From positions 44,125 through 108,124 of the IMG/VR virus record IMGVR_UViG_3300042945_001689: DNA of 64,000 bases. One strand, written 5' to 3'. The stretch is from a virus. Position 1 is the first letter of the stretch. The number at the start of each line of letters is the position of its first letter. The notes beneath the pieces are model-generated. The model made no database searches, was not told where the DNA came from, and saw only the letters and a program-made list of their open reading frames with translations. Below, piece by piece: positions 3,556-55,960 of the stretch. The position numbers were made by a program, and so were the translations under genes.

Positions 3556-5499
3556 TTATGCTTTTAAATCTCCCATTACAACCCAAAGATTTGCTGCTCT
3601 CTTAAATAATGTTGCTGATGACCATTGTGCACGAAGTTTTAATCCAGGAGTTGCATTTACTGTTGTTGTTCCTGGTGTTACTGCTTCAATTGTCACTTCG
3701 CCAGTATTTGTTCGAAGAATATCAATTGATGTTCCGACTGGATAATTAAGTGTAGCATCTGTTGGGATTAAAACCTTAACTGCAGTTCCACCTGTATGTG
3801 AAACTTCAATTAATGAGTCTCTTTCATTTGCTGCTGAAAGGGTGTATTCTGCTGTCTTCTGAATAATTGATGTCCGTGATGGAACACCTTCTTTTGTTTG
3901 TGTACCGTCGGTAAAAATAAATCCACCAGCAGTTGTACTAATAACTGAAGTTCCGTTTACTTTAAGATCTTTTCCTGAAGCAAGGTTGATATGCTCGGAA
4001 GATGTCCAAGAATCTGTAGAATCTACCCAGTTAAAGGTTTTGTCTGTTGCGCCTTTAAGTGTAATACCTCCGCCATCTGCAGTTGTATCAGTAGGAGTTC
4101 CTGTATCTCCAAGAACAATGTTTTTGTCTTCAATAACAAGGTTAGTTGAGTTAAGGTTTGTTGTAGTTCCATTAATCGTTAAGTTTCCAGAAAGAGTTAA
4201 GTCTGTTCCAGAAACGGCTCCTGTAAATGTTGCTCCAGTAAGAGAAGCCTTAGCGTCTAACTGTGTTTGAATGGCTGAAGTTACCCCATCAACGTAGTTA
4301 AGTTCTGTAGTTGATGTGGTTACACCATCAAGAATGTTAAGTTCTGCTGCTGTAGAAGTAATAGAACTTCCAGCAATCTGTAAAGTTGTGGCGTTTACTT
4401 CGCCTGCAGAGCCATAAATAACTGCTTTGCTATTTGCAATAGTTCCTGCTGATGATCCATCTACTAAGTTAAGTTCTGCTGCTGTAGAAGTAATAGAAGT
4501 GCCAGCAATTTGTAAAGTTGTAGCATTTACTTGGCCTGCTGGACCATAAATTACTGCCTTGCTATCTACAATTGTTCCAGCAATAGATCCATCTATTAAA
4601 TTAACTTCTGATGCTGTTGCAGTGACATCTGTTGCACCTGCTGAAAGAACATGTGTATGACCTGTTCCTGCTTTTCCATCAATCTGTCCTTGAATTCCAG
4701 CAGAAACTCCTTCTAGGTACCCTATTTCTGTTGAAGATAGATCTCCAATTGATGTGGTACTTGGAAGAGTTACTGTTCCAGTAAATGTAGGACCTGCTAG
4801 TGCTGCTTTAGCATCTAACTGAGTTTGAATTGCTGAGGTTACACCATTAAGATAACTAATTTCAGTATTTGATACATCTGCAACAACTGCTTGCTTATTG
4901 TCTAATTGTGTTTGAATTGCTGAAGTAACACCAGCAAGATATCCTAATTCTGTTGATGTTGCACCAGTTGCACTAAGGTTTCCTGTTGTAACAACAGTTC
5001 CGCTTACGTTTGGAAATGTAATAGTTCTATCGGCTGTAGGATCTGTTACTGTTAAAGTGGTTTCATAATCGTTTGCTGTAGTACCTTCAAAAACAATTCC
5101 TGTTGTAGCATTAATTGTTGTGCTGTTAATAGTAGTGGTTGTACCACTTACTGTTAAATCTCCTGAAACGGTAACGTTTCCACTACCATCGGACAAAACA
5201 ACTGTGCCTGTTGCATCTGGAAATGTAATTGTACGGTCTGCTGTAGGATCTGTTACGGCAAGAGTTGTTTCAAATGCGTTGTCTGTAGCACCTTCAAATG
5301 TAATGCTTGAACCAAATGATGGGTTTACTGTAGAGGATTGGTCAATAAAGTAGTCAATATTTGCCCAGTGGTTAGTGCCATCACCGATCTTAAACTTATT
5401 AGTGTCTGATTCCCATCCGATTTCACCAGCATTTAGTATTGGGTTTGCTGATGTCCATTGTGCTGCAGTACCTCTGCGTTGCTGCATTCTTGTTGCCAT
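3556..5499 (-). CDS. Tail fibre protein with Mtd-N-like N-terminal domain
   Basis: MQQRRGTAAQW..NPIL..GEIGWESDTNKFKIGDG; internal GVTSAIQTQLD repeats; C-terminal domain shared with 14890..15690. Confidence 0.8.
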   Translation of the reverse strand: MATRMQQRRGTAAQWTSANPILNAGEIGWESDTNKFKIGDGTNHWANIDYFIDQSSTVNPSFGSSITFEGATDNAFETTLAVTDPTADRTITFPDATGTVVLSDGSGNVTVSGDLTVSGTTTTINSTTINATTGIVFEGTTANDYETTLTVTDPTADRTITFPNVSGTVVTTGNLSATGATSTELGYLAGVTSAIQTQLDNKQAVVADVSNTEISYLNGVTSAIQTQLDAKAALAGPTFTGTVTLPSTTSIGDLSSTEIGYLEGVSAGIQGQIDGKAGTGHTHVLSAGATDVTATASEVNLIDGSIAGTIVDSKAVIYGPAGQVNATTLQIAGTSITSTAAELNLVDGSSAGTIANSKAVIYGSAGEVNATTLQIAGSSITSTAAELNILDGVTTSTTELNYVDGVTSAIQTQLDAKASLTGATFTGAVSGTDLTLSGNLTINGTTTNLNSTNLVIEDKNIVLGDTGTPTDTTADGGGITLKGATDKTFNWVDSTDSWTSSEHINLASGKDLKVNGTSVISTTAGGFIFTDGTQTKEGVPSRTSIIQKTAEYTLSAANERDSLIEVSHTGGTAVKVLIPTDATLNYPVGTSIDILRTNTGEVTIEAVTPGTTTVNATPGLKLRAQWSSATLFKRAANLWVVMGDLKA

Positions 5500-5547
5500 A
5501 TTATTTTCCTCCTACAGAAAATTTCTTATTTTTATTATAACAGATAA

Positions 5548-6006
5548 TTAATTAAAGTTATCTGTTGCAACTCCTCCATCATAGGTATTTTCCCATGATG
5601 AAGTGCTATAGTCTCCTGCGCTTACTAGAACACCTGGTTCATTATAAGCACCTCCAGAAACAAATGTACTTACAATAAGACCAGATCCATCAATTGCGGT
5701 ATTGTGAATGTGGTCTTGTAATACTTCTGCATCTTCAAGAGTTGCAATTGCTACCCATTGAGATCCATAATAAACATGAACTCTTTCTGTTAATGTGTCA
5801 AACCAAAGATTTCCATTTGATGGAGAATTTGGTGCTGTTCCGCTAACAGTTACTCCTGCACTACCCGCAACACTATCAACATATGCTTTTGTTGCTGCAT
5901 GTGTATTTTGAGTTGGAGTGGCAACTGTAACCGTTGATCCGAAAGTACCGCCATCGGCTACGACTAAGCCATGTTTTACCTTAAAATCTCTGTTTACAGT
6001 TGCCAT
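5548..6006 (-). CDS. Minor tail/fibre-associated protein
   Basis: N-terminus like 6019..7845; HAATKAYVD and GNLWFDT fibre motifs. Confidence 0.6.
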   Translation of the reverse strand: MATVNRDFKVKHGLVVADGGTFGSTVTVATPTQNTHAATKAYVDSVAGSAGVTVSGTAPNSPSNGNLWFDTLTERVHVYYGSQWVAIATLEDAEVLQDHIHNTAIDGSGLIVSTFVSGGAYNEPGVLVSAGDYSTSSWENTYDGGVATDNFN

Positions 6007-13403: not shown

Positions 13404-13988
13404 ATGGACAATATGTATAAGGTACAACCTGGCTATTTTGGGGACTCTGTTGATAATATCATTGTTTTAGAAAATTTTATAAGTCCAGATGACTTAGATA
13501 AATTTTACTTTTACTCTAAATCAATAGAAAATTTTTTATCCATACCTGATGACAACTGGGACAACAGGGTTCATAGTTCAGAGTTATTTAAAAATAGTAA
13601 TAAGGCATTATTTCTTAAACTTTTAGAATATCAAAAAAAATTAAAAATAGAAATAGAAAAAAGATTTAACTTTGTTTTACAAGAAAATTCACCATCAATA
13701 GTTCTTTGGAGACCTGGAGACGATCAGCCTCCTCATGCAGACAAACAGGAGCAAGATGGTAATCCAAATTCTTATCCTGAAAATGATGTGGCATCCCTAA
13801 TGTATATAAACGACAATTATGATGGTGGAGAAATATACTTTACTAACCAGGATATAACCATAAAGCCCAAGGCTGGTTCTGCAATATTTTTTCCTGGAGA
13901 TATACATTATACTCATGGGGTAACAAAAGTATTAAATAACAACAGATATACATCGCCAGCATTTTGGCGTGTAAAAAACTTTAATTAA
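13404..13988 (+). CDS. 2OG-Fe(II) oxygenase, prolyl 4-hydroxylase-like
   Basis: HAD, YINDNYDGGE, HGV..RY; resembles 10710..11300. Confidence 0.9.
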   Translation: MDNMYKVQPGYFGDSVDNIIVLENFISPDDLDKFYFYSKSIENFLSIPDDNWDNRVHSSELFKNSNKALFLKLLEYQKKLKIEIEKRFNFVLQENSPSIVLWRPGDDQPPHADKQEQDGNPNSYPENDVASLMYINDNYDGGEIYFTNQDITIKPKAGSAIFFPGDIHYTHGVTKVLNNNRYTSPAFWRVKNFN

Positions 13989-23408: not shown

Positions 23409-23608
23409 TGATGACACGAAAAGACTATGTCGCAACTGCTGAAATTCTAAGCAATTATTTTGCTACATCTATTTTTGATGAGCAGGCAGAAATTTTATTT
23501 GCTGATTTGGTAGATGAATTTTCGCTAATGTTTGAAAGTGATAATCCAAGATTTGACGCAAATAAATTTGCTCTTGCTTGCTATAAAGAAATTGAGGTAA
23601 ATGCGTGA
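23408..23608 (+). CDS. Small early protein
   Basis: MTRKDY..DNPRFD..F..AC; coupled start/stop. Confidence 0.7.
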   Translation: MMTRKDYVATAEILSNYFATSIFDEQAEILFADLVDEFSLMFESDNPRFDANKFALACYKEIEVNA

Positions 23609-23735
23609 ATAGATTTTTAACAACAATCGTTCAACTATTTTTAGCGGGTAGCGTTTTCATTTTATTTAAAATGATGTTACCAATGCTAAAAGAAGATTTT
23701 CAACAAATAAAAAATGATTTAACAAAATAAAAAAA

Positions 23736-23763
23736 ATTCCTAAGCAAGAATAAAAACTGCTTA
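23736..23763 (+). ncRNA. H-type pseudoknot motif, copy 1
   Basis: AUUC-C-UAAGCA-A-GAAU-AAAAAC-UGCUUA; compensatory A-U in P2. Confidence 0.8.
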
Positions 23764-23879
23764 AATTTTGCCCGCGGGCCCCGACACGCCCGACCTCGTT
23801 GTGAGTTATCCACAACTCCTTTACGTGTGGTTAAGATCACACCCCAAAACCTGCAAAACCCCCTTAATGAATTATGAGA

Positions 23880-23901
23880 TGTCAGTCAAATATGCTAGGA
23901 T
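23880..23901 (+). promoter_or_regulatory. TGTCAG-N10-TAGGAT promoter
   Basis: motif family. Confidence 0.65.
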
Positions 23902-23928
23902 TGTATTATTCCAAAGAAAGGAAAACTA

Positions 23929-24123
23929 ATGGGAAACTTGTTTGATAAAATAGGAATTTGCTACACTTGCTATGATGAGGGCGTTATCTTTACTGATATG
24001 GATAGCGATGGATTTATAAATGATTTCTGCGCTGATTGTGAAAAAGGTCAGGTATTTGCTAATGACTATTCAATATGGTATGCTGAAAATGAAATGAACG
24101 AATACACTAAGGAGAACGCATAA
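23929..24123 (+). CDS. Small Zn-finger-like early protein
   Basis: CYTC..CADC; strong SD. Confidence 0.7.
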   Translation: MGNLFDKIGICYTCYDEGVIFTDMDSDGFINDFCADCEKGQVFANDYSIWYAENEMNEYTKENA

Positions 24124-24226
24124 TGACCTACTATGACGACTACTATGAAACTGATACGCCTACTGCCGTAGGTTGCTACTGCAAAATAAATTATCTATGC
24201 TCAGAATGTAAAGGAAGTTACAACTA

Positions 24227-24439
24227 ATGGAATATGAATATCTAATTACCTGCGCCTATGACGGGAACGCTCCGCATTGGGAGCAACGCTATGAAAACGA
24301 ATATGGCGCATGGGAAAACTTTTTCCTATTTACTGATTGGGGAATGGCTGATGAATACTCAACAGTTAATCTTTACACGCCAACTGGCAAATGTTATACA
24401 AAAAACTTTTATCGTAGTGGAATGGTGAGTGTAAAATAA
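24227..24439 (+). CDS. Small early protein
   Basis: 70 aa with SD. Confidence 0.7.
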   Translation: MEYEYLITCAYDGNAPHWEQRYENEYGAWENFFLFTDWGMADEYSTVNLYTPTGKCYTKNFYRSGMVSVK

Positions 24440-24633
24440 TGACACAGGAAAATTTTAAATATAGTTGGGAACGCTATACTATTTGGGATACCCCCGAAGT
24501 TTGGGAAGAACCATGCGGTGATGAAAGGGCTGAATTGAATGGCGTTGTGTCTTGGGAGTTAGAAGATGAAGAGCCATTTATTTCTTTAGAAGAAGATCCA
24601 GAAATGGAAGATTGGTTAATGAGTAATGTTTAA
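24439..24633 (+). CDS. Small acidic early protein
   Basis: very Glu/Asp/Trp-rich; coupled to upstream ORF. Confidence 0.6.
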   Translation: MTQENFKYSWERYTIWDTPEVWEEPCGDERAELNGVVSWELEDEEPFISLEEDPEMEDWLMSNV

Positions 24634-24842
24634 GATGTAAAATATAAAAACCCCCGCGGGCGATGTCCGATTTGTCCAGAATCTCCCAGGATTTGATTTC
24701 TAAGATTATTTATGATATTATTTTTATATGTGGAAAAAAACAAGCGAAGAGTTACGTAGAATACAAGAGTTACGTAGATCTAATGCTGCTACCCCTTTAC
24801 GGGACAAGTCTAAATATTCCCGAAAAAACAAGCATAAGAAAC

Positions 24843-24871
24843 TTGACATTTATCTCCCTGAAAGGTAGAAT
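24843..24871 (+). promoter_or_regulatory. SigA promoter TTGACA-N17-TAGAAT, leaderless for 24878
   Basis: consensus; ATG 6 nt after -10. Confidence 0.8.
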
Positions 24872-24877
24872 ATTAAT

Positions 24878-25606
24878 ATGAACCCAACTCACACCCTGAA
24901 ACGCTCTAATGATAGGAAAGTAACTAATGCTGTCAGTCCTAATGGTAAGACTCCAACAATTGCTAACACCTTCGGACTACCCGCAGGCAAAGAGTACTCC
25001 TGTCCTGGAGAAACCCCTACCTGCAAAAAAGTCTGCTACGCAGGAAAACTTGAAAAGATCTACAAAGGCGTAAAAGCCGTACTATTACATAATTGGGATT
25101 TGCTAAGCAATGCAGATTTTGATACCCAGGTACAATTGATAGATGAAATGATTATTGATTTCAAGTCTGATTGTGTAAAGAAAGACGCTCCTATGCTATT
25201 CCGTATCCACTGGGACGGAGATTTCTTCAATGATCAATACACTCTGGCCTGGAAGACAGTAATTGAAAGACACGAAGATGTTCAATTTTGGGTATACACG
25301 AGAGTAGCAAGCGCTGCTAGGATTCTTAAGGATGTTTCTAATTTAGGATTATATTATTCTACAGACGGCGATAACAAAAATATTGCACAAGGTCTCTCGG
25401 AAGAAGGAATAAAACTAGCATATCTTTCTACTACATTTGCGTTAGGTAAGGAAGATATGCTAAACTTGATAGGTAAGTCAGCCGTCAAGTGTCCTGAGAA
25501 TAATAAAAAGATTCCCCTCATTTCTAAACAGGGGTCAGCGTGTGTTACTTGCGGTCAATGTGTATTTGAGCGTAATAATATCCTATTTTCTAGTACTAAG
25601 AAATGA
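24878..25606 (+). CDS. GP88-family protein (mycobacteriophage gp88-like, Cys-rich)
   Basis: CPG.T..C..VCYA, FRIHWDGDF, YTR, C-terminal CxxCxxC. Confidence 0.75.
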   Translation: MNPTHTLKRSNDRKVTNAVSPNGKTPTIANTFGLPAGKEYSCPGETPTCKKVCYAGKLEKIYKGVKAVLLHNWDLLSNADFDTQVQLIDEMIIDFKSDCVKKDAPMLFRIHWDGDFFNDQYTLAWKTVIERHEDVQFWVYTRVASAARILKDVSNLGLYYSTDGDNKNIAQGLSEEGIKLAYLSTTFALGKEDMLNLIGKSAVKCPENNKKIPLISKQGSACVTCGQCVFERNNILFSSTKK

Positions 25607-25767
25607 GGAACTATGGAAGTCCTAATTGTCCTATTTATCGGTATTGTCGTATTGTTGGCTGGCTTGGGACATAAGTGATTTATCTCACACCAAAACTAGG
25701 CTCTACGATTTGATATTTTCTAGCAACCCTGCTAGAATTGTAATAACAACAAAAGAAAGGAAGCAAA

Positions 25768-25926
25768 ATGGCAAAGTCAGCACTATACAAAGTAGGCGAC
25801 ACCTATACCTCTCAAAAGAGCAAGGTAACAGGAACCATCTTGGAGATTTCTCCAAACTCATCTGGCTCGGTGCGAGTTAAACTAGATGTAGAGGGAAATA
25901 CCCGTTGGACAACTTGGAAGGCATAA
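25768..25926 (+). CDS. Small early protein (52 aa)
   Basis: hand-translated MAKSALYKVGD..RWTTWKA*; GAAAGGA SD. Confidence 0.7.
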   Translation: MAKSALYKVGDTYTSQKSKVTGTILEISPNSSGSVRVKLDVEGNTRWTTWKA

Positions 25927-25952
25927 GCCTTTAGGTTTAGCAAACGCTAACC

Positions 25953-25983
25953 AGACCTGAGCAAGTCTAGGATAAACTGCTCA
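25953..25983 (+). ncRNA. H-type pseudoknot motif, copy 2
   Basis: AGAC-C-UGAGCA-A-GUCU-AGGAUAAAC-UGCUCA. Confidence 0.8.
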
Positions 25984-26013
25984 CCAAACCCCTTACCCGA
26001 AAGGAACCCAAAT

Positions 26014-26436
26014 ATGGCACGACAGAAAGCAATCTCAGTAAAAATTGCAACAAGCAAAGTAATCAAGGCACTAGAAACTCGTCTAGCAGAACTAGAAAAG
26101 AACTATGCCTCACAAGAAGCCAATGAAGCAAAGTATCAGAAGGCTTACAAGAATTGGCAGAAAGAACTACAAGAGTTCGCTATTGCTAATATCAAGAAGG
26201 CAGAAAACTTCCGCACATCATATCGTTCTTGGAATAAGACCTTGAACATTGACTACGACATCATCACAAACGAGGACTCTTTACCAAAAGAGCCTGAGCG
26301 TGATTTTGAGCAACTCCATCAACACAGTTATCGTGAGATGAAAGAGGAAATGGAAAATGCTATCCGTATTCTCAAAATGACAGATGAGGAAGTTGTAAGC
26401 ACATCAACTTACAATGCTATTTCTCGTTATCTTTAA
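26014..26436 (+). CDS. Hypothetical coiled-coil protein
   Basis: 140 aa, strong SD. Confidence 0.8.
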   Translation: MARQKAISVKIATSKVIKALETRLAELEKNYASQEANEAKYQKAYKNWQKELQEFAIANIKKAENFRTSYRSWNKTLNIDYDIITNEDSLPKEPERDFEQLHQHSYREMKEEMENAIRILKMTDEEVVSTSTYNAISRYL

Positions 26437-26483
26437 CAAGATAGGCACACGGATAATTTAATTATCTATACGCCTTAGTTAAA

Positions 26484-26511
26484 TCTCCTGAGTATGAGGC
26501 TAAACTGCTCA
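26484..26511 (+). ncRNA. H-type pseudoknot motif, copy 3
   Basis: UCUC-C-UGAGUA-U-GAGG-CUAAAC-UGCUCA; G-U wobbles fix the + strand. Confidence 0.8.
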
Positions 26512-26568
26512 CCAACTTTCATCTCTGCTAAGCCCCAGGCCATGATGCGTGGGTATGCCTGAGATGAT

Positions 26569-26596
26569 CTTCCTGAGCATGAGGTTAAACTGCTCA
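26569..26596 (+). ncRNA. H-type pseudoknot motif, copy 4
   Basis: CUUC-C-UGAGCA-U-GAGG-UUAAAC-UGCUCA. Confidence 0.8.
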
Positions 26597-26615
26597 TTTT
26601 TGCCCCGCGGGGGAT

Positions 26616-26631
26616 TGTGATAAACATCACA
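26616..26631. promoter_or_regulatory. CRP/GlxR-type site TGTGA-N6-TCACA
   Basis: perfect consensus just after CCCGCGGG. Confidence 0.7.
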
Positions 26632-26674
26632 TTCTTAAAAAATGTCCAGAAACGCCCAATTTAAGATTAGACAA

Positions 26675-26696
26675 TGTCAGCCCTATCCGCTAGAAT
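26675..26696 (+). promoter_or_regulatory. TGTCAG-N10-TAGAAT promoter
   Basis: motif family. Confidence 0.7.
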
Positions 26697-26727
26697 TATA
26701 TTAACAACAACGAAAGGAACAACCCCT

Positions 26728-27021
26728 ATGGCAAATATGAAGAAAATTATGGATGCAACAAATGATGCTATCCATACTAATGAAATTTCAGATGAGGCTT
26801 CAGGTCTTGTAGCAACTATCGCAGAAGGTCTGCCACTTGATGTAATTATCAAAGAGTTATACCAATACTCGCAAGCCTTATCTGCTATGGTACTAACAAA
26901 AGTTTTGCACACCATGTATGATGCCGAAACTATTGAGAACATGATAGATGGCTACCAAGATGAACTTACCGCAGAAATGTTTGATGAGATTGAAAACTAT
27001 CTTCAGAAAGAAGGAAACTAA
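26728..27021 (+). CDS. Hypothetical acidic early protein
   Basis: start moved to ATG 26728 after promoter and SD. Confidence 0.7.
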   Translation: MANMKKIMDATNDAIHTNEISDEASGLVATIAEGLPLDVIIKELYQYSQALSAMVLTKVLHTMYDAETIENMIDGYQDELTAEMFDEIENYLQKEGN

Positions 27022-27022
27022 T

Positions 27023-27424
27023 ATGCCTATTCCAGATAACTCGTGTCTAGTAACTATCAACTCACTAAATGAGGAGATTGCTTTACTAAAATCACAACTA
27101 GGAGATGCTCTTAGTAACTCACAAAGACACTATGAATACTATGAAAAACTGCAAAACTCTATTCGTTATTTCTTTGAGAGCAATCGTAGTGATGCTACTT
27201 GTGAGTTTGACATTGACAATGTAAATGCTTTCCTTGCTGAAAATAGCATTGAACCGCTAAAGCGTGAGTATCGTGTTGAGTTCCGAATTGAAGGAACAAT
27301 TCTTGTGGAAGCAGAAAACGAAGATGAAGCACAAGATATAGTAAATGAACTTGATGTAACGCATTGGACTGCTGAAGTTGAAAATTTTGAAGCAGAAGCA
27401 ACTAATGTAGAAGCAACCTACTAG
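27023..27424 (+). CDS. Hypothetical early protein
   Basis: GAAGGA SD before ATG 27023; VEAENEDEA motif. Confidence 0.7.
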   Translation: MPIPDNSCLVTINSLNEEIALLKSQLGDALSNSQRHYEYYEKLQNSIRYFFESNRSDATCEFDIDNVNAFLAENSIEPLKREYRVEFRIEGTILVEAENEDEAQDIVNELDVTHWTAEVENFEAEATNVEATY

Positions 27425-27442
27425 TTTTTCCGTAGGGGAAAA

Positions 27443-27470
27443 AGTCCTGAGCATGACTAAAAACTGCTCA
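27443..27470 (+). ncRNA. H-type pseudoknot motif, copy 5
   Basis: AGUC-C-UGAGCA-U-GACU-AAAAAC-UGCUCA. Confidence 0.8.
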
Positions 27471-27483
27471 CCACCCGCGGGGG

Positions 27484-27516
27484 TGTGACATTGATCACAG
27501 TGTGTTCTTTATCACA
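27484..27516. promoter_or_regulatory. Tandem CRP/GlxR-type sites
   Basis: TGTGA-CATTGA-TCACA then TGTGT-TCTTTA-TCACA. Confidence 0.7.
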
Positions 27517-27592
27517 TAACGATATTTTAGGATGATTTGACTTTGACTTTGATTTACGATAAAATTAGAATATCAACTGAAAGGATAAAAAT

Positions 27593-28573
27593 ATGGCTCA
27601 TGAAATCGAAATAATCAACGGTGAGGCTTCTTTTGCTTCATTGCGTGAACCTGCGTGGCATGGTTTAGGTACCGTGTTTACAGAAGAGAAAACAACTAGC
27701 GAAATGCTAGAGTTAGCAAATCTGCAAGACTGGAATGTAAGATTAGAAGAGGTCGAGGCTCCTGCTACTCTAACATCAGACAAAAATTATTTCTATGTAG
27801 TACGAAATAATCCCGTAATCGAAAATCAAAACGATATTTTAGGTATTGTTGGAGAACGTTACAATGTATTGCAAAATGAACAACTATTTGATTTTGCAGA
27901 TGCAATGCTAGATGGTGGACGATGGGAAACCGCTGGCTCACTACGAGGTGGACGTGTAGTATTTGGTAGCCTTGCACTAGATCGTGAAACCGTACTAGAC
28001 CCTAATGGCGTTGCAGATAAAATCAACACCTATCTGATAGTCAATACATCACACGATGGTTCTATCTCAATTCAAGCAAGCGTTACCCCCGTACGTGTAG
28101 TGTGCGCTAACACATTGAACTTTGCTTTGCGTAGTGTAAAGCAATCCTTCAAGATTCGCCACACACAAACTGCTAATGGTAAAGTACAATCCGCTAAGAC
28201 TGCTCTAGGTATTGCTAACGCATACATGGACGACTTTAGCGTTATGGCAAACAAGATGATTCAGACTGAATTATCCGCTAAGCAATTCAACGATATTCTT
28301 CTCACCGCTTACCCTAAGCCTGATAAGGATTCTAAGCAAGCCCTAACCAAGTGGACAAATAAAATTGACACTCTCAATGATATTTACACTGGCGAATTCA
28401 ATCACATGATTTCGGGTAATGCGTGGGGCGCTCTTAATGCAATGACTGAACGCATTGACTGGTTCAGAGGTCAAGGTGAAACTAAGTTAGCAGCAGCAAG
28501 TGGTTTTGATGTTGCGACTAATGCAGAAAAAAATCGTTTAATGAAAATCGTAAATGATTTTGTAGCAGCGTAA
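27593..28573 (+). CDS. DUF932 / TIGR03299-type phage-plasmid protein
   Basis: PAWHGLG, ETAGSLRGGR, NTSHDG, RVVCANTL, RHT motifs. Confidence 0.85.
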   Translation: MAHEIEIINGEASFASLREPAWHGLGTVFTEEKTTSEMLELANLQDWNVRLEEVEAPATLTSDKNYFYVVRNNPVIENQNDILGIVGERYNVLQNEQLFDFADAMLDGGRWETAGSLRGGRVVFGSLALDRETVLDPNGVADKINTYLIVNTSHDGSISIQASVTPVRVVCANTLNFALRSVKQSFKIRHTQTANGKVQSAKTALGIANAYMDDFSVMANKMIQTELSAKQFNDILLTAYPKPDKDSKQALTKWTNKIDTLNDIYTGEFNHMISGNAWGALNAMTERIDWFRGQGETKLAAASGFDVATNAEKNRLMKIVNDFVAA

Positions 28574-28577
28574 ATAA

Positions 28578-28606
28578 ATATCCTGAGCATGATATAAAAC
28601 TGCTCA
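28578..28606 (+). ncRNA. H-type pseudoknot motif, copy 6, 3 nt before tRNA-Asp
   Basis: AUAUC-C-UGAGCA-U-GAUAU-AAAAC-UGCUCA. Confidence 0.8.
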
Positions 28607-28609
28607 TCT

Positions 28610-28686
28610 GATTCCATAGATCAATTGGTTAGATCGCCACCCTGTCACGGTGGAGGTTGCGGGTTCAAGTCCCGTTGGAATCGCCA
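28610..28686 (+). tRNA. tRNA-Asp(GTC)
   Basis: cloverleaf; anticodon stem CCACC/GGTGG, TTCAA T-loop, encoded CCA. Confidence 0.95.
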
Positions 28687-28825
28687 AAGGTTGGTGCAAC
28701 ACCCGCGGGGTTATCCACAGGTTATTCACATGATGAACGGTAAATCAAATTTTAAATCTAAAACATACTTTTTCCCTTTATTAAGAAGAGTTGACTTTTT
28801 CCTGGAATCAGGGTAAAATATTAAT

Positions 28826-37391: not shown

Positions 37392-37465
37392 GCACCAGTA
37401 GCCAAGTTGGTTAAGGCCCCGAACTCATAATTCGGTTATCGTAGGTTCAAGTCCTACCTGGTGTA
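37392..37465 (+). tRNA. tRNA-CAT (Ile2 or elongator Met)
   Basis: cloverleaf, CCGAA-CT-CAT-AA-TTCGG; C4/C5 in the acceptor stem hint at Ile2. Confidence 0.9.
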
Positions 37466-37469
37466 CTAA

Positions 37470-37543
37470 TGGTCTGTAGCACAATTGGCAGTTGCACTCG
37501 GCTGTTAACCGAGATGTTGTAGGTTCGAGTCCTACCAGACCAG
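37470..37543 (+). tRNA. tRNA-Asn(GTT)
   Basis: CTCGG-CT-GTT-AA-CCGAG; acceptor TGGTCTG/CAGACCA. Confidence 0.93.
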
Positions 37544-37546
37544 CAA

Positions 37547-37618
37547 GGCACCATCGTCTATCGGTTAGGACATCGCCCTTTCACGGCGAAAAGACGGGTT
37601 CGACTCCCGTTGGCGCTA
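37547..37618 (+). tRNA. tRNA-Glu(TTC)
   Basis: TCGCC-CT-TTC-AC-GGCGA; one A-C mismatch in acceptor stem. Confidence 0.88.
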
Positions 37619-37619
37619 C

Positions 37620-37692
37620 GCCCTCATAACTCAGGGGATAGAGTCACGGACTTCTAATCCGTTGGTCGCAGGTTCGAATCCTGCTGAGGGCA
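37620..37692 (+). tRNA. tRNA-Arg(TCT)
   Basis: ACGGA-CT-TCT-AA-TCCGT; acceptor GCCCTCA/TGAGGGC. Confidence 0.93.
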
Positions 37693-37723
37693 CAAATATG
37701 ATAGAATTAGTAATGGAGATATT

Positions 37724-55888: not shown

Positions 55889-55889
55889 G

Positions 55890-55960
55890 AGCCTCTTGTA
55901 AGAATCGAACTTACGCATCCCGCTTACAAGGCGGGGGCACTACCACTATGCTAAAGAGGC
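55890..55960 (-). tRNA. tRNA-Thr(TGT)
   Basis: acceptor GCCTCTT/AAGAGGC; CCCGC-CT-TGT-AA-GCGGG; GTTCGA T-loop. Confidence 0.92.

What the first reader, a model, noticed from the sequence alone, without database searches (positions are those of the whole stretch)
23736..28606. Six dispersed copies of a ~28-nt H-type RNA pseudoknot with covariation in both stems
Seen: consensus NNNC-C-UGAGCA-W-GNNN-(N)AAAC-UGCUCA at 23736, 25953, 26484, 26569, 27443, 28578. P1 differs in every copy but always pairs (AUUC/GAAU, AGAC/GUCU, UCUC/GAGG, CUUC/GAGG, AGUC/GACU, AUAUC/GAUAU). P2 has a compensatory change (UAAGCA/UGCUUA) and a U-G wobble; the wobbles work only on the sense strand, implying RNA. Copies follow stop codons of early genes, three directly precede CCCGCGGG and one abuts tRNA-Asp. 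Inference: nuclease roadblock or processing signal, antitermination element, or decoy RNA (type III TA antitoxins such as ToxI are similar-sized pseudoknots, and phage mimics are known). I cannot match it to a known family.
Basis: partly seen in the sequence, partly recalled or inferred. Interest (0 to 1): 0.88.

Follow-up and report, generated by a model that had tools for sequence, protein, structure and literature searches.

The report
Coremin-like RNA pseudoknot in phage operons
The six repeats are real copies of a 27-30-base RNA pseudoknot found just after gene ends in hundreds of unrelated phages and prophages; it closely resembles the plant-virus 'coremin' knot that stops RNA-degrading enzymes and ribosomes, so it is probably a compact roadblock between genes, though this is untested.

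Summary
All six copies exist at the stated coordinates, all on the + strand. They are the only copies in the 108-kb phage genome.

The same element occurs in at least 119 viral contigs and about 75 prokaryotic genome contigs. These span Saccharibacteria, Cyanobacteria, Firmicutes, Actinobacteria, Bacteroidota, Proteobacteria and Methanobrevibacter. It also occurs in cultured phages such as Labelle, S-EIVl, S-RIM4 and the Erwinia Loessnervirus group.

Both stems covary in tests that did not select for pairing, so the H-type pseudoknot is real. No Rfam 15 family matches it.

The stop codon to knot distance has a hard minimum of 5 nt and a mode of 5-6 nt. tRNA genes, hammerhead ribozymes or DUF2800 RNAs often start 0-12 nt after the knot. 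No neighbouring protein family is shared.

Its signature matches the coremin / xrRNA-C pseudoknot of eukaryotic RNA viruses: a C-G closing pair, first loop base C, loop ending A-D, then NN-AAAC-U with that A pairing the U. It differs in a 6-bp Watson-Crick stem 2, U instead of G at loop position 2, and no second hairpin.

My best reading (about 0.4) is a protein-independent roadblock to 5'->3' exonucleases and ribosomes at cistron borders. A 3'-end protector is the main rival.

This scan had already found the family on other DNA, and the coremin lead came from those notes.

The parts
23736..23763 (+). Pseudoknot copy 1. P1 23736-39 with 23748-51 (AUUC/GAAU). L1 is C at 23740. P2 23741-46 with 23758-63 (UAAGCA/UGCUUA, compensatory A-U). 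L2 is A at 23747. L3 is AAAAAC at 23752-57.
   Evidence: 42.8 bits. It starts 5 nt after the TAA at 23728-30 of ORF 23605-23730. CCCGCGGG follows at 23771.
25953..25983 (+). Pseudoknot copy 2. P1 is AGAC/GUCU. L1 is C at 25957. P2 25958-63 with 25978-83. L3 is 9 nt (AGGAUAAAC).
   Evidence: 31.5 bits. It lies 26 nt after the stop of ORF 25768-25926 and 30 nt before the ATG at 26014.
26484..26511 (+). Pseudoknot copy 3. P1 is UCUC/GAGG. P2 is UGAGUA/UGCUCA, with a U-G wobble that pairs only on this strand.
   Evidence: 43.2 bits. It lies 47 nt after the stop of ORF 26014-26436. A 57-nt hairpin RNA follows at 26512-26568 (-20.7 kcal/mol, z -2.9).
26569..26596 (+). Pseudoknot copy 4. P1 is CUUC/GAGG. 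P2 is the consensus UGAGCA/UGCUCA. L3 is UUAAAC.
   Evidence: 39.8 bits. A U5 run and then the CCCCGCGGGG palindrome (26604) follow.
27443..27470 (+). Pseudoknot copy 5. P1 is AGUC/GACU. P2 is the consensus. L3 is AAAAAC.
   Evidence: 48.4 bits. It lies 18 nt after the TAG of ORF 26948-27424. CCCGCGGG follows at 27474.
28578..28606 (+). Pseudoknot copy 6. P1 is (A)UAUC/GAUA(U). P2 is the consensus. L3 is AAAAC.
   Evidence: 49.1 bits. It starts 4-5 nt after the TAA at 28571-73 of the phrog_1221/DUF932-like gene and ends 3 nt before tRNA-Asp.
28610..28686 (+). tRNA-Asp (GTC), the downstream neighbour of copy 6. It is context, not part of the knot.
   Evidence: The gene-knot-tRNA-Asp arrangement recurs in 13 related viral loci.
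26512..26568 (+). Stable hairpin RNA lying between knot copies 3 and 4. It is context.
   Evidence: MFE -20.7 kcal/mol, z -2.94. No ORF is present.

Best explanation
Each element folds, in the mRNA, into a compact H-type pseudoknot of the coremin (xrRNA-C) type.

The anatomy is:
- Stem 1 has 3-5 free-sequence pairs closed by C-G.
- A single C forms loop 1.
- Stem 2 has six pairs (U-GAGC-A with U-GCUC-A), formed between the hairpin loop and the bases that follow the AAAC.
- One junction base is A or U.
- An A-rich loop 3 (NN-AAAC) probably lies in the minor groove of stem 1.

The knot needs no protein partner. It acts as a mechanical roadblock for machines that thread single-stranded RNA in the 5'->3' direction. 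These include RNase J-type exonucleases where the host has them, 5'-end-dependent decay, and ribosomes that slide or read past the stop codon.

Placed as close to the stop codon as a terminating ribosome allows, it uncouples the downstream RNA from the fate of the upstream cistron. The downstream RNA may be the next cistron, a tRNA, a ribozyme or a small structured RNA.

Shown here: the fold (by covariation), the placement rules, the breadth of occurrence, and the shared signature with coremin. Inferred: that it blocks enzymes, and in which direction.
For: Fold:
- Both stems covary in unselected tests (summary counts).
- Length changes occur only in loop 3 or as hairpin insertions.
- G is almost absent from the three bases after stem 2 (2, 3 and 5 of 146). 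A G there would extend stem 2 at the expense of stem 1.

RNA-level action on translated messages:
- The distance from the stop codon to stem 1 has a hard floor at 5 nt. Only 6 of 198 copies lie below it, 58 lie at 5-6 nt, and 101 at 5-10 nt.
- This equals the spacer used by frameshift pseudoknots, which lets a ribosome sit on the stop codon without unwinding the knot (established knowledge).
- Cultured phages show the same layout.

No dedicated partner:
- The largest shared neighbour protein family is present in 32 of 192 loci.
- Upstream genes fall into 91 clusters.
- Hosts span bacteria and an archaeon.

Kinship with coremin (papers read). Coremin has a 3-5 bp hairpin with a sequence-specific C-G closing pair, a loop that starts with Y and ends A-D, then G-UU-AAA-CU-AC. 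Its AAACU is essential, an insertion just after the hairpin is tolerated, A7 pairs with U19, and the adenosines are modelled in the stem 1 minor groove. The phage knot has the same closing pair, a first loop base C, a loop ending A-W (145 of 150 copies are A or U), NN-AAAC-U, the same A-U register, and insertions at the same place.

Coremin blocks Xrn1 and scanning ribosomes. It stimulates -1 frameshifting, and frameshift-positive variants were selected in E. coli. A flaviviral xrRNA also blocks bacterial RNase J1.

Downstream neighbours fit a 5' shield:
- tRNA genes start 3-12 nt after 19 of 146 copies, and none lies upstream within 30 nt.
- DUF2800 RNA starts 0 nt after the knot in 5 loci.
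- A stable hairpin RNA follows copy 3 in the window.
- Start codons lie 12-45 nt downstream in about a third of copies.
Against: - No experiment or RNA-end data exist for any phage copy.
- Coremin needs a second hairpin directly after the spacer to stop Xrn1, and the phage knot has none. Hairpins start 0-4 nt after it in 70 of 213 copies, against 72-88 in controls, and the 3' flank is less structured than controls.
- Loop position 2 is U, where coremin requires G.
- Ordinary frameshift pseudoknots of similar size do not stop Xrn1 (PMC10321173).
- The knot also occurs in phages of Erwinia and in a Polynucleobacter assembly. These hosts lack RNase J by my own knowledge, so that enzyme cannot be the only target.
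- A hammerhead ribozyme directly after the knot (L145, L008, L228) cuts the knot away from the downstream RNA, as RNase P does before tRNAs. That fits a 3'-end role better.
- Window copies 1, 4 and 5 sit at operon ends in front of promoter-like regions.
- Most 'invariant' bases were fixed by my search patterns. The model search found exceptions.
Confidence: 0.4

Rival explanations
1. The knot is a 3'-end protector. It belongs to the upstream cistron and stops 3'->5' exonucleases (PNPase, RNase II/R, the archaeal exosome) after termination or cleavage just downstream. This stabilises the upstream message with a 3' UTR of only about 35 nt.
For: - Spacing to the upstream stop codon is tight, while spacing to the next start codon is broad.
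- End-generating elements follow the knot closely. tRNA 5' ends (RNase P cuts) lie 3-12 nt after it in 19 of 146 copies.
- Type III hammerheads cut 5-9 nt after it in L145 (Rfam) and, by eye, in L008 and L228.
- T runs of at least 5 lie within 14 nt in 24 of 221 copies, against 3-6 in controls.
- Window copies 1, 4 and 5 lie at operon ends.
Against: - The characterised relative, coremin, is a 5'->3' block, and xrRNAs are direction-dependent.
- The T-run controls were mostly coding sequence, so that enrichment may only reflect intergenic composition.
- Genuine xrRNAs also sit right after stop codons.
- Simple hairpins normally suffice against 3' exonucleases, so the conserved sequence is left unexplained.
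Confidence: 0.2
2. The knot is a processing signal. Either it is a tRNA-acceptor-like pseudoknot cleaved by RNase P (as the TYMV tRNA-like structure is), or it is a very small self-cleaving ribozyme that punctuates polycistronic RNA.
For: - A universal or intrinsic agent would explain the same sequence occurring across bacterial phyla and an archaeon.
- The layout can be read as U(-1), G(+1), then a variable base after GCUC and frequent CC(A): CCA follows in 22 of 146 copies against about 2 expected. The last stem 2 base changes without compensation.
- The knot keeps company with tRNAs and hammerheads, as known phage ribozymes do.
Against: - CCA is absent in 85% of copies.
- The coaxial helix is only about 10 bp and has no T-loop mimic.
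- Cleavage there would destroy the knot whose stem 1 is so strictly maintained.
- No known ribozyme is this small.
- The G-poor flank is explained by the fold itself.
Confidence: 0.1
3. The knot is a translation signal for the upstream gene. Lodged at the mRNA entrance while the stop codon is in the A site, it would modulate termination, read-through, frameshifting or ribosome recycling.
For: The spacing peak at 5-6 nt matches recoding spacers. Coremin stimulates -1 frameshifting (PMC10321173).
Against: - Half of the copies lie more than 10 nt from the nearest long ORF stop.
- Some copies lie in long non-coding stretches, such as Erwinia phage Berlingot.
- Upstream genes are unrelated.
- I did not look for a conserved slippery site or extension frame.
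Confidence: 0.08
4. The knot is a decoy or binding site for a host or phage protein. Candidates are a ToxI-like antitoxin mimic, a tRNA-enzyme decoy, or a nucleation site like the T4 gene 32 pseudoknot.
For: - Stem 2 is under sequence constraint, with 87% consensus, although the stem covaries.
- Its core duplex GAGC/GCUC plus flanking A equals the commonest tRNA D-stem duplex (my own reading of the sequence).
- The T2/T4 gene 32 knot has the same one-base loop 1 geometry (established knowledge).
Against: - No protein family co-occurs with it.
- Copies are single and dispersed, not tandem arrays next to a toxin gene.
- Its range across phyla argues against a lineage-specific partner.
Confidence: 0.07
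5. The element works at the DNA level, as a promoter, operator or single-stranded DNA structure.
For: It sits 12-35 nt before start codons and 0-12 nt before RNA genes, as a promoter might.
Against: - Loop 3 length varies from 5 to more than 13 nt.
- Stem 1 covaries, and U-G wobbles pair on one strand only.
- All copies are co-oriented with genes.
- The 5-nt gap after stop codons has no explanation at the DNA level.
Confidence: 0.02

Closest known systems
Coremin motif / xrRNA-C, including its Watson-Crick type, of plant, fungal and invertebrate RNA viruses (Dilweg et al. 2019 PMC6546385; 2023 PMC10520033; 2023 PMC10321173)
   Same: - A 3-5 bp hairpin of free sequence closed by C-G.
- The first loop base is a pyrimidine (C), and the loop ends A then A/U/G.
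- The hairpin is followed by NN-AAAC-U, and the loop A pairs with that U.
- An A-rich loop faces the stem 1 minor groove.
- Insertions are tolerated just 3' of the hairpin.
- Loops of 4-8 nt are known.
- It is usually placed just after a stop codon, at the start of a 3' UTR or intergenic region.
   Different: - Stem 2 is six Watson-Crick pairs and runs past the 10-nt 'spacer'.
- Loop position 2 is U, not the required G.
- Position 20 is G, not A.
- There is no second hairpin, which coremin needs to stop Xrn1.
- The carriers are DNA phages and prophages of bacteria and archaea, where Xrn1 does not exist.
- Function is untested.
Luteovirus-type -1 frameshift pseudoknots (BWYV and relatives)
   Same: The size (about 28 nt), a short loop 1 with a C, an A-rich loop 3 and one junction base are shared. 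So is a 5-8 nt distance from the codon in the A site.
   Different: Here that codon is a stop codon, and I did not look for a slippery heptamer or an extension frame. Stem lengths are reversed (4 + 6 bp against 5 + 3 bp). BWYV does not stop Xrn1 (PMC10321173).
T2/T4/T6 gene 32 mRNA pseudoknot (autoregulatory operator)
   Same: It is phage-encoded, an H-type knot, and has a single nucleotide in loop 1 spanning a 6-7 bp stem 2 (established knowledge).
   Different: The gene 32 knot lies in one specific 5' leader and works with gp32. The knot here is dispersed behind unrelated genes with no common protein.
Flavivirus and tombusvirus/polerovirus xrRNAs (classes 1-3)
   Same: They are protein-independent folded RNA blocks to 5'->3' exonucleases, placed right after the ORF. 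One blocks bacterial RNase J1 (PMC5760640).
   Different: They are much larger, with three-way junctions or a 9-bp long-range knot that forms a ring. There is no sequence similarity.
PreQ1-I riboswitch aptamer
   Same: It is a small H-type knot with an A-rich loop 3 ending in C before stem 2.
   Different: The knot here has no ligand pocket, since loops 1 and 2 are one base each. It occurs in many copies behind unrelated genes and before tRNAs. Rfam RF00522 does not match.

Membership tests
Coremin / xrRNA-C | Hairpin 1 has 3-5 bp. Pairing is required, the sequence is free, and the loop-closing pair is C-G. | tested here: met
   P1 pairs 2-3 form in 146/146 copies with four pair types. The closing pair is C-G in 146/146 copies whose 5' strand was not part of the pattern. 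Two G-C exceptions turned up among the 40 model hits I read.
Coremin / xrRNA-C | Loop 1 follows the consensus YGAD / YGNNAD: first Y, second G, penultimate A, last not C. | tested here: inconclusive
   The loop is C-U-G-A-G-C-A-W. The first base is C and the penultimate is A. The last is A or U in 145 of 150 copies, C in 3 and G in 2. The second base is U and the G comes third, and CCGAAA-type loops failed in the coremin assays. The first-base C and penultimate A were fixed by my patterns.
Coremin / xrRNA-C | The conserved spacer is G-UU-AAA-CU-AC, with A16-A20 essential, U13/U14 free and an insertion after G12 tolerated. | tested here: met
   The knot has NN-AAAC-U with variable NN, and all extra length is inserted 5' of AAAC. 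Position 20 is G, where it pairs. A minority variant, AAAAAGGCUCA, exists. AAACU was part of the search pattern.
Coremin / xrRNA-C | A pseudoknot forms between loop bases and the spacer bases after AAA, in register 7-19. | tested here: met
   The penultimate loop A pairs with the U after AAAC. Five further pairs follow, and four of them covary.
Coremin / xrRNA-C | A second hairpin of at least 4 bp lies directly after the spacer and is needed for Xrn1 resistance. | tested here: not met
   Hairpins start 0-4 nt after the knot in 70 of 213 copies, against 72-88 in controls. The 3' flank is less structured than controls. Only window copies 1, 4 and 5 have a GC palindrome there.
Coremin / xrRNA-C | It halts Xrn1 just 5' of hairpin 1, stalls ribosomes and stimulates -1 frameshifting. 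| not testable with these tools
   This needs enzyme and reporter assays.
Type III antitoxin RNA (ToxI-like) | A tandem array of about 36-nt repeats lies directly upstream of a ToxN-family toxin gene. | tested here: not met
   Copies are single and lie 85-2200 nt apart. There is no PF13958 match in the genome, but the control genomes did not match either, so that search alone is weak.
Any Rfam 15 family | A match to a curated covariance model. | tested here: not met
   There is no hit at gathering score in the window. There is none at E up to 10 over 23600-28800 apart from the tRNA and chance matches.
-1 programmed frameshift signal | A slippery heptamer lies 5-9 nt upstream, and a -1 frame extends the protein. 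| not tested
   The spacing fits, but the codon at that spacing is a stop codon. I made no systematic search for slippery sites.
Intrinsic (Rho-independent) terminator | A GC-rich hairpin is directly followed by a U tract. | tested here: not met
   A T run of at least 5 lies within 14 nt in only 24 of 221 copies. Stem 2 alone gives -4 to -6.6 kcal/mol.
tRNA-like acceptor pseudoknot (TYMV type) / RNase P substrate | A coaxial helix of about 12 bp ends in a discriminator base plus CCA. | tested here: inconclusive
   The helix is about 10 bp. CCA follows in 22 of 146 copies, which is enriched but a minority. Cleavage cannot be tested here.

The most novel reading that the evidence does not exclude
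The phage knot is a true exoribonuclease- and ribosome-resistant RNA that works in bacteria and archaea. It would be the prokaryotic-virus branch of the coremin fold. One roughly 28-nt roadblock module would then be shared, by descent or transfer, between DNA phages of many phyla and RNA viruses of plants, fungi and invertebrates. It would also show that bacterial mRNA decay and translation are punctuated by xrRNA-like elements.
Probability: 0.35. Interest if true: 0.9.

Novelty: new variant of a known kind. Interest (0 to 1): 0.8.

Why it matters
Exoribonuclease-resistant RNAs are known only from RNA viruses of eukaryotes. If this knot does the same job, it would be the first such element in phages. 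It occurs in hundreds of unrelated phage and prophage contigs across bacterial phyla and in a methanogen.

That would point to a general, protein-free way of insulating neighbouring cistrons, tRNAs and ribozymes within long phage transcripts. It would also offer a tiny, host-independent stabiliser or insulator part for synthetic biology.

The phage copies supply natural variation in both stems, in loop length and in a possible loop 3 to stem 1 triple. That variation could help to work out the still unsolved coremin fold. The idea can be tested directly with cultured phages and simple nuclease assays.

Tried and rejected
- **Rfam.** Gathering mode on the window and E-value mode on the region found no family for the knot.
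- **Full-text search for the literal sequence words.** It returned only unrelated primers and siRNAs.
- **Drum and related Weinberg 2017 motifs.** They are described with terminators and protein associations and sit in Rfam without a match. The 10,006-motif phage catalogue and the Minerva preprint gave nothing recognisable.
- **Public sequencing runs.** No RNA holder was listed, only one contig-level run of unknown kind holding 23% of the words.
- **Earlier findings by sequence.** Nothing was returned.
- **A shared neighbour protein.** None was found.
- **Gene-orientation test (convergent against divergent neighbours).** My crude ORF caller was too noisy to decide: 21 against 14, with 39 false 'inside ORF' calls.
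- **Terminator or hp2 hairpin after the knot.** It was not enriched.
- **T-run enrichment.** I kept it only as weak evidence, because the control windows were mostly coding.
- **ToxN search.** There was no hit, but the control genomes did not match either.
- **Other coremin-like knots in the window, with stem 2 of 3-8 bp.** Nothing rose above the reversed-sequence background except the six copies.
- **BLAST of the whole 6.5-kb region against cultured phages.** It gave only short gene-level matches.
- **Ideas considered and dropped.** These were a riboswitch, since the knot has no pocket, many copies and sits before tRNAs; and an N4-type hairpin promoter, given the variable loop, the wobble strand bias and the stop-codon spacing.

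Full report
**What is there**

The window is the right-hand 64 kb of a 108-kb, 99%-complete IMG/VR phage record. Between 23.7 and 28.6 kb lies a block of small, co-oriented genes of unknown function. Only phrog_1392 and a phrog_1221/DUF932-like gene are recognisable.

Six copies of one short element lie in its intergenic gaps, all on the coding strand. They are the only copies in the genome. A covariance model built later finds no others in the window: the six score 31-49 bits and the next hit scores 14.

Each copy reads as follows:
- Stem 1 (P1), 5' strand: NNNC.
- Loop 1: C.
- Stem 2 (P2), 5' strand: UGAGCA.
- Junction base: A or U.
- Stem 1, 3' strand: GNNN.
- Loop 3: NN-AAAC, 5-9 nt in the window.
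- Stem 2, 3' strand: UGCUCA.

**Is the pseudoknot real?**

A pattern holding only the conserved words was scanned over IMG/VR. The 5' strand of P1 lay outside that pattern, yet three results held:
- The base before the pattern is C in 146/146 copies.
- P1 pairs 2 and 3 form in 146/146 copies, with all four Watson-Crick types.
- Pair 4 forms in 84%, and position 5 pairs no more often than chance.

For P2 I scanned all loci while leaving the four inner pairs free. Of 39 non-consensus copies, 31 keep all four pairs, and 12 of them do so by fully compensatory changes such as UGGACA/UGUCCA, UAGACA/UGUCUA and UGGCCA/UGGCCA. The 8 unpaired hits match the background of 4 in reversed sequence.

On a 150-row alignment, 97.3% of cells pair, against 82% in shuffles and 24-37% in slid registers. 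That alignment was selected for pairing, so it only summarises the result.

Several further observations fit a folded RNA:
- Extra length occurs only in loop 3, or as inserted hairpins.
- U-G wobbles pair on the sense strand only.
- G is nearly absent from the three bases after P2. A G there would extend P2 into loop 1 and P1.
- Loop 3 position 2 co-varies with P1 pair 3 (MI 0.39; A with A-U or U-A pairs, U with C-G). This may be a minor-groove triple or may reflect shared ancestry.

Nested folding recovers only the P2 hairpin, at -4 to -6.6 kcal/mol.

One caveat applies to conservation. The 'invariant' bases were largely fixed by my patterns. The model search over 100 loci gave 182 hits. Among the 40 I read are these exceptions:
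- The last P2 base changes to C, U or G without compensation.
- The junction base is C in about 5%.
- A G-C closing pair occurs twice.
- There is an AAAAAGGCUCA variant.

**Distribution**

The same pattern hit at least 119 contigs of species-representative prokaryotic genomes, about 75 of them with an intact P1. They include Saccharibacteria, Cyanobacteria, Anaerolineae, Omnitrophota, Clostridia, lactobacilli, Nocardia, Bacteroidota, alpha-, beta- and delta-proteobacteria and Methanobrevibacter. The remainder are chance matches inside genes.

BLAST with one copy finds the knot, always unannotated, in these cultured phages:
- Mycobacterium phage Labelle.
- Synechococcus phages S-EIVl and S-RIM4.
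- Nine Erwinia Loessnervirus phages.
- Paracoccus, Lentibacter, Bacillus and Nostoc phages.

No Rfam 15 family matches.

**Placement rules (221 unique copies)**

Four rules emerge.

1. *Distance from the upstream stop codon.* The gap from the stop codon of the upstream ORF to a 4-bp P1 has a hard floor at 5 nt. Six copies lie below it, 58 at 5-6 nt, and 101 of 198 at 5-10 nt, with a long tail beyond. Annotated phages agree: Labelle gene 85, S-RIM4 gene 084 and S-EIVl each show stop codon, about 5 nt, then the knot. A 5-8 nt gap is what keeps a downstream structure just outside the mRNA entrance when the preceding codon is in the A site, as in frameshift signals (established knowledge). So the knot is kept out of the path of the terminating ribosome, which argues that it acts as RNA on translated messages.
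2. *Distance to the next start codon.* This is broad, from 12 to 200 nt, with about a third of copies at 12-45 nt.
3. *What follows the knot.*
   - A tRNA gene starts 3-12 nt downstream in 19 of 146 viral copies, 13 of them tRNA-Asp as in the window. None ends within 30 nt upstream.
   - A type III hammerhead begins 0-4 nt after the knot in L145 (Rfam hit) and, by eye, in L008 and L228.
   - The DUF2800 RNA (RF02960) begins at the very next base in five loci.
   - In the window, copy 3 is followed by a stable 57-nt hairpin and then copy 4.
   - Otherwise the 3' flank is G-poor and less structured than control windows. Hairpins are not enriched there. T runs are somewhat enriched, but against mostly coding controls.
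4. *No partner protein.* Upstream genes fall into 91 clusters of 157. The most frequent neighbour family is in 32 of 192 loci, and those are relatives of this phage.

**What it resembles**

A look-up of this scan's earlier notes showed that other agents had met the same family on other genomes and had pointed to the coremin motif. I read the three papers.

Coremin (xrRNA-C) has these features:
- A 3-5 bp hairpin whose C-G closing pair is sequence-specific.
- A loop following YGAD or YGNNAD. Loops of 4-8 nt work, the first base must be a pyrimidine, and the last must not be C.
- A spacer reading G-UU-AAA-CU-AC, in which A16 to A20 are essential. The two U are free, and an insertion right after the hairpin is tolerated.
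- A second hairpin directly downstream, which is needed to stop Xrn1.

It is now modelled as an H-type pseudoknot. Loop bases 6-8 pair with spacer bases 18-20, base 5 forms loop 1, and the adenosines lie in the stem 1 minor groove. 'Watson-Crick-type' variants were selected and one was found in nature. In those, the second hairpin is dispensable for frameshift stimulation but not for Xrn1 resistance.

The phage knot shares these features:
- The C-G closing pair.
- The first loop C.
- The loop ending A-W.
- NN-AAAC-U, with the loop A pairing with the U after AAAC.
- The site where insertions occur.

Common phage copies even read GUC-C...AU-GAC-GUUAAAC-U, identical to BNYVV coremin outside the enlarged loop.

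It differs in four ways:
- Loop position 2 is U.
- Stem 2 has six pairs and runs beyond the 'spacer'.
- Position 20 is G rather than A.
- The second hairpin is absent.

I therefore file it as a variant of the coremin kind, not as a proven member.

**How it most likely works**

Coremin stops Xrn1 one base before hairpin 1, blocks scanning ribosomes, and drives -1 frameshifting. Frameshift-positive variants were selected in E. coli. A flaviviral xrRNA also stops bacterial RNase J1, which shows that such folds are general mechanical blocks.

By analogy and by placement, I take the phage knot to be a protein-free roadblock at cistron borders. It would stop 5'->3' threading machines arriving from the upstream cistron, namely exonucleases and stray ribosomes, and so insulate the downstream RNA.

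This direction is an inference, and several facts pull the other way:
- Hammerheads and RNase P cut the knot off the downstream RNA, leaving it at the 3' end of the upstream fragment.
- Three window copies sit at operon ends, before CCCGCGGG and promoter-like regions.
- Erwinia and Polynucleobacter lack RNase J, by my own knowledge.
- The second hairpin that coremin needs against Xrn1 is missing.

The main rival is therefore a 3'-end protector for the upstream message. Lesser rivals are an RNase P or self-cleavage signal, a termination or recoding signal, a protein decoy and a DNA-level site.

No RNA run holding this phage was listed, so none of these readings could be tested on reads.

**Verdict**

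The ToxI-like option does not.
- The family is absent from Rfam, and I found no paper describing it in phages. Its closest described relative is coremin.
- This scan had already noted the family on other DNA.

Noticed in passing
window 21172, 22381, 23771, 24653, 26604, 27474, 28702, 32154: All eight CCCGCGGG palindromes of the 35%-GC genome lie in this 11-kb early region, where about 0.2 are expected by chance. Each heads a promoter-like intergenic stretch that carries recurring words (ATGTCCGATTTGTCC, GTTATCCACA, TGTGA..TCACA, ATGTCAGACCCC) and -10-like boxes. Relatives carry small CCC-loop-GGG hairpins in the same place after the knot.
   Followed up: partly
L023:285-445, L239:912-1071, L163:5432-5592, L188:5051-5208(-), L243:1598-1754(-): The DUF2800 RNA motif (RF02960, 140-160 bits) begins at the base immediately after the pseudoknot in five unrelated contigs.
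   Followed up: partly
L145:7541-7595(-); L008 about 13780-13850; L228 about 5745-5830: Type III hammerhead ribozymes start 0-4 nt after the pseudoknot, so their cleavage site lies 5-9 nt 3' of it. Only the L145 copy reaches the Rfam gathering score.
   Followed up: partly
window 26512-26568: A 57-nt stable hairpin (-20.7 kcal/mol, z -2.9) with no ORF lies between knot copies 3 and 4. It may be a small RNA bracketed by two knots. A similar tandem pair 60 nt apart occurs in L037.
   Followed up: partly
window 27425-27442: A small hairpin, UUUUUCC-GUA-GGGGAAAAA, read by eye and not folded, fills the gap between the TAG of ORF 26948-27424 and knot copy 5.
   Followed up: no
L246:900-2430 (Erwinia phage Berlingot, OQ818695.1 about 4110-5640): A 1.5-kb unannotated stretch holds the knot, one weak tRNA hit and several tRNA 3'-half-like segments (GGTTCGATTCC...CCA). 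It may be a dense non-coding RNA region.
   Followed up: no
L040:11778-12019: A permuted tmRNA (RF04321, 66.8 bits) lies in a viral contig that also carries three knot copies.
   Followed up: no
alignment A1, column 24 against pair 8-21: The second base of loop 3 co-varies with the third stem 1 pair. It is A with A-U or U-A pairs and U with C-G pairs (MI 0.39, 0 of 300 permutations reach it). This may be a base triple or may reflect shared ancestry.
   Followed up: partly
window 37392-37693 and 55889-55960(-): The window also holds a tRNA cluster (Met, Asn, Glu, Arg) and a lone tRNA-Thr. None is preceded by a knot.
   Followed up: no
P2 of all copies: The stem 2 core duplex GAGC/GCUC, with an A after each strand, has the same letters as the commonest tRNA D-stem (G10-C25 to C13-G22, A14, A26). 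I do not know whether this matters.
   Followed up: no
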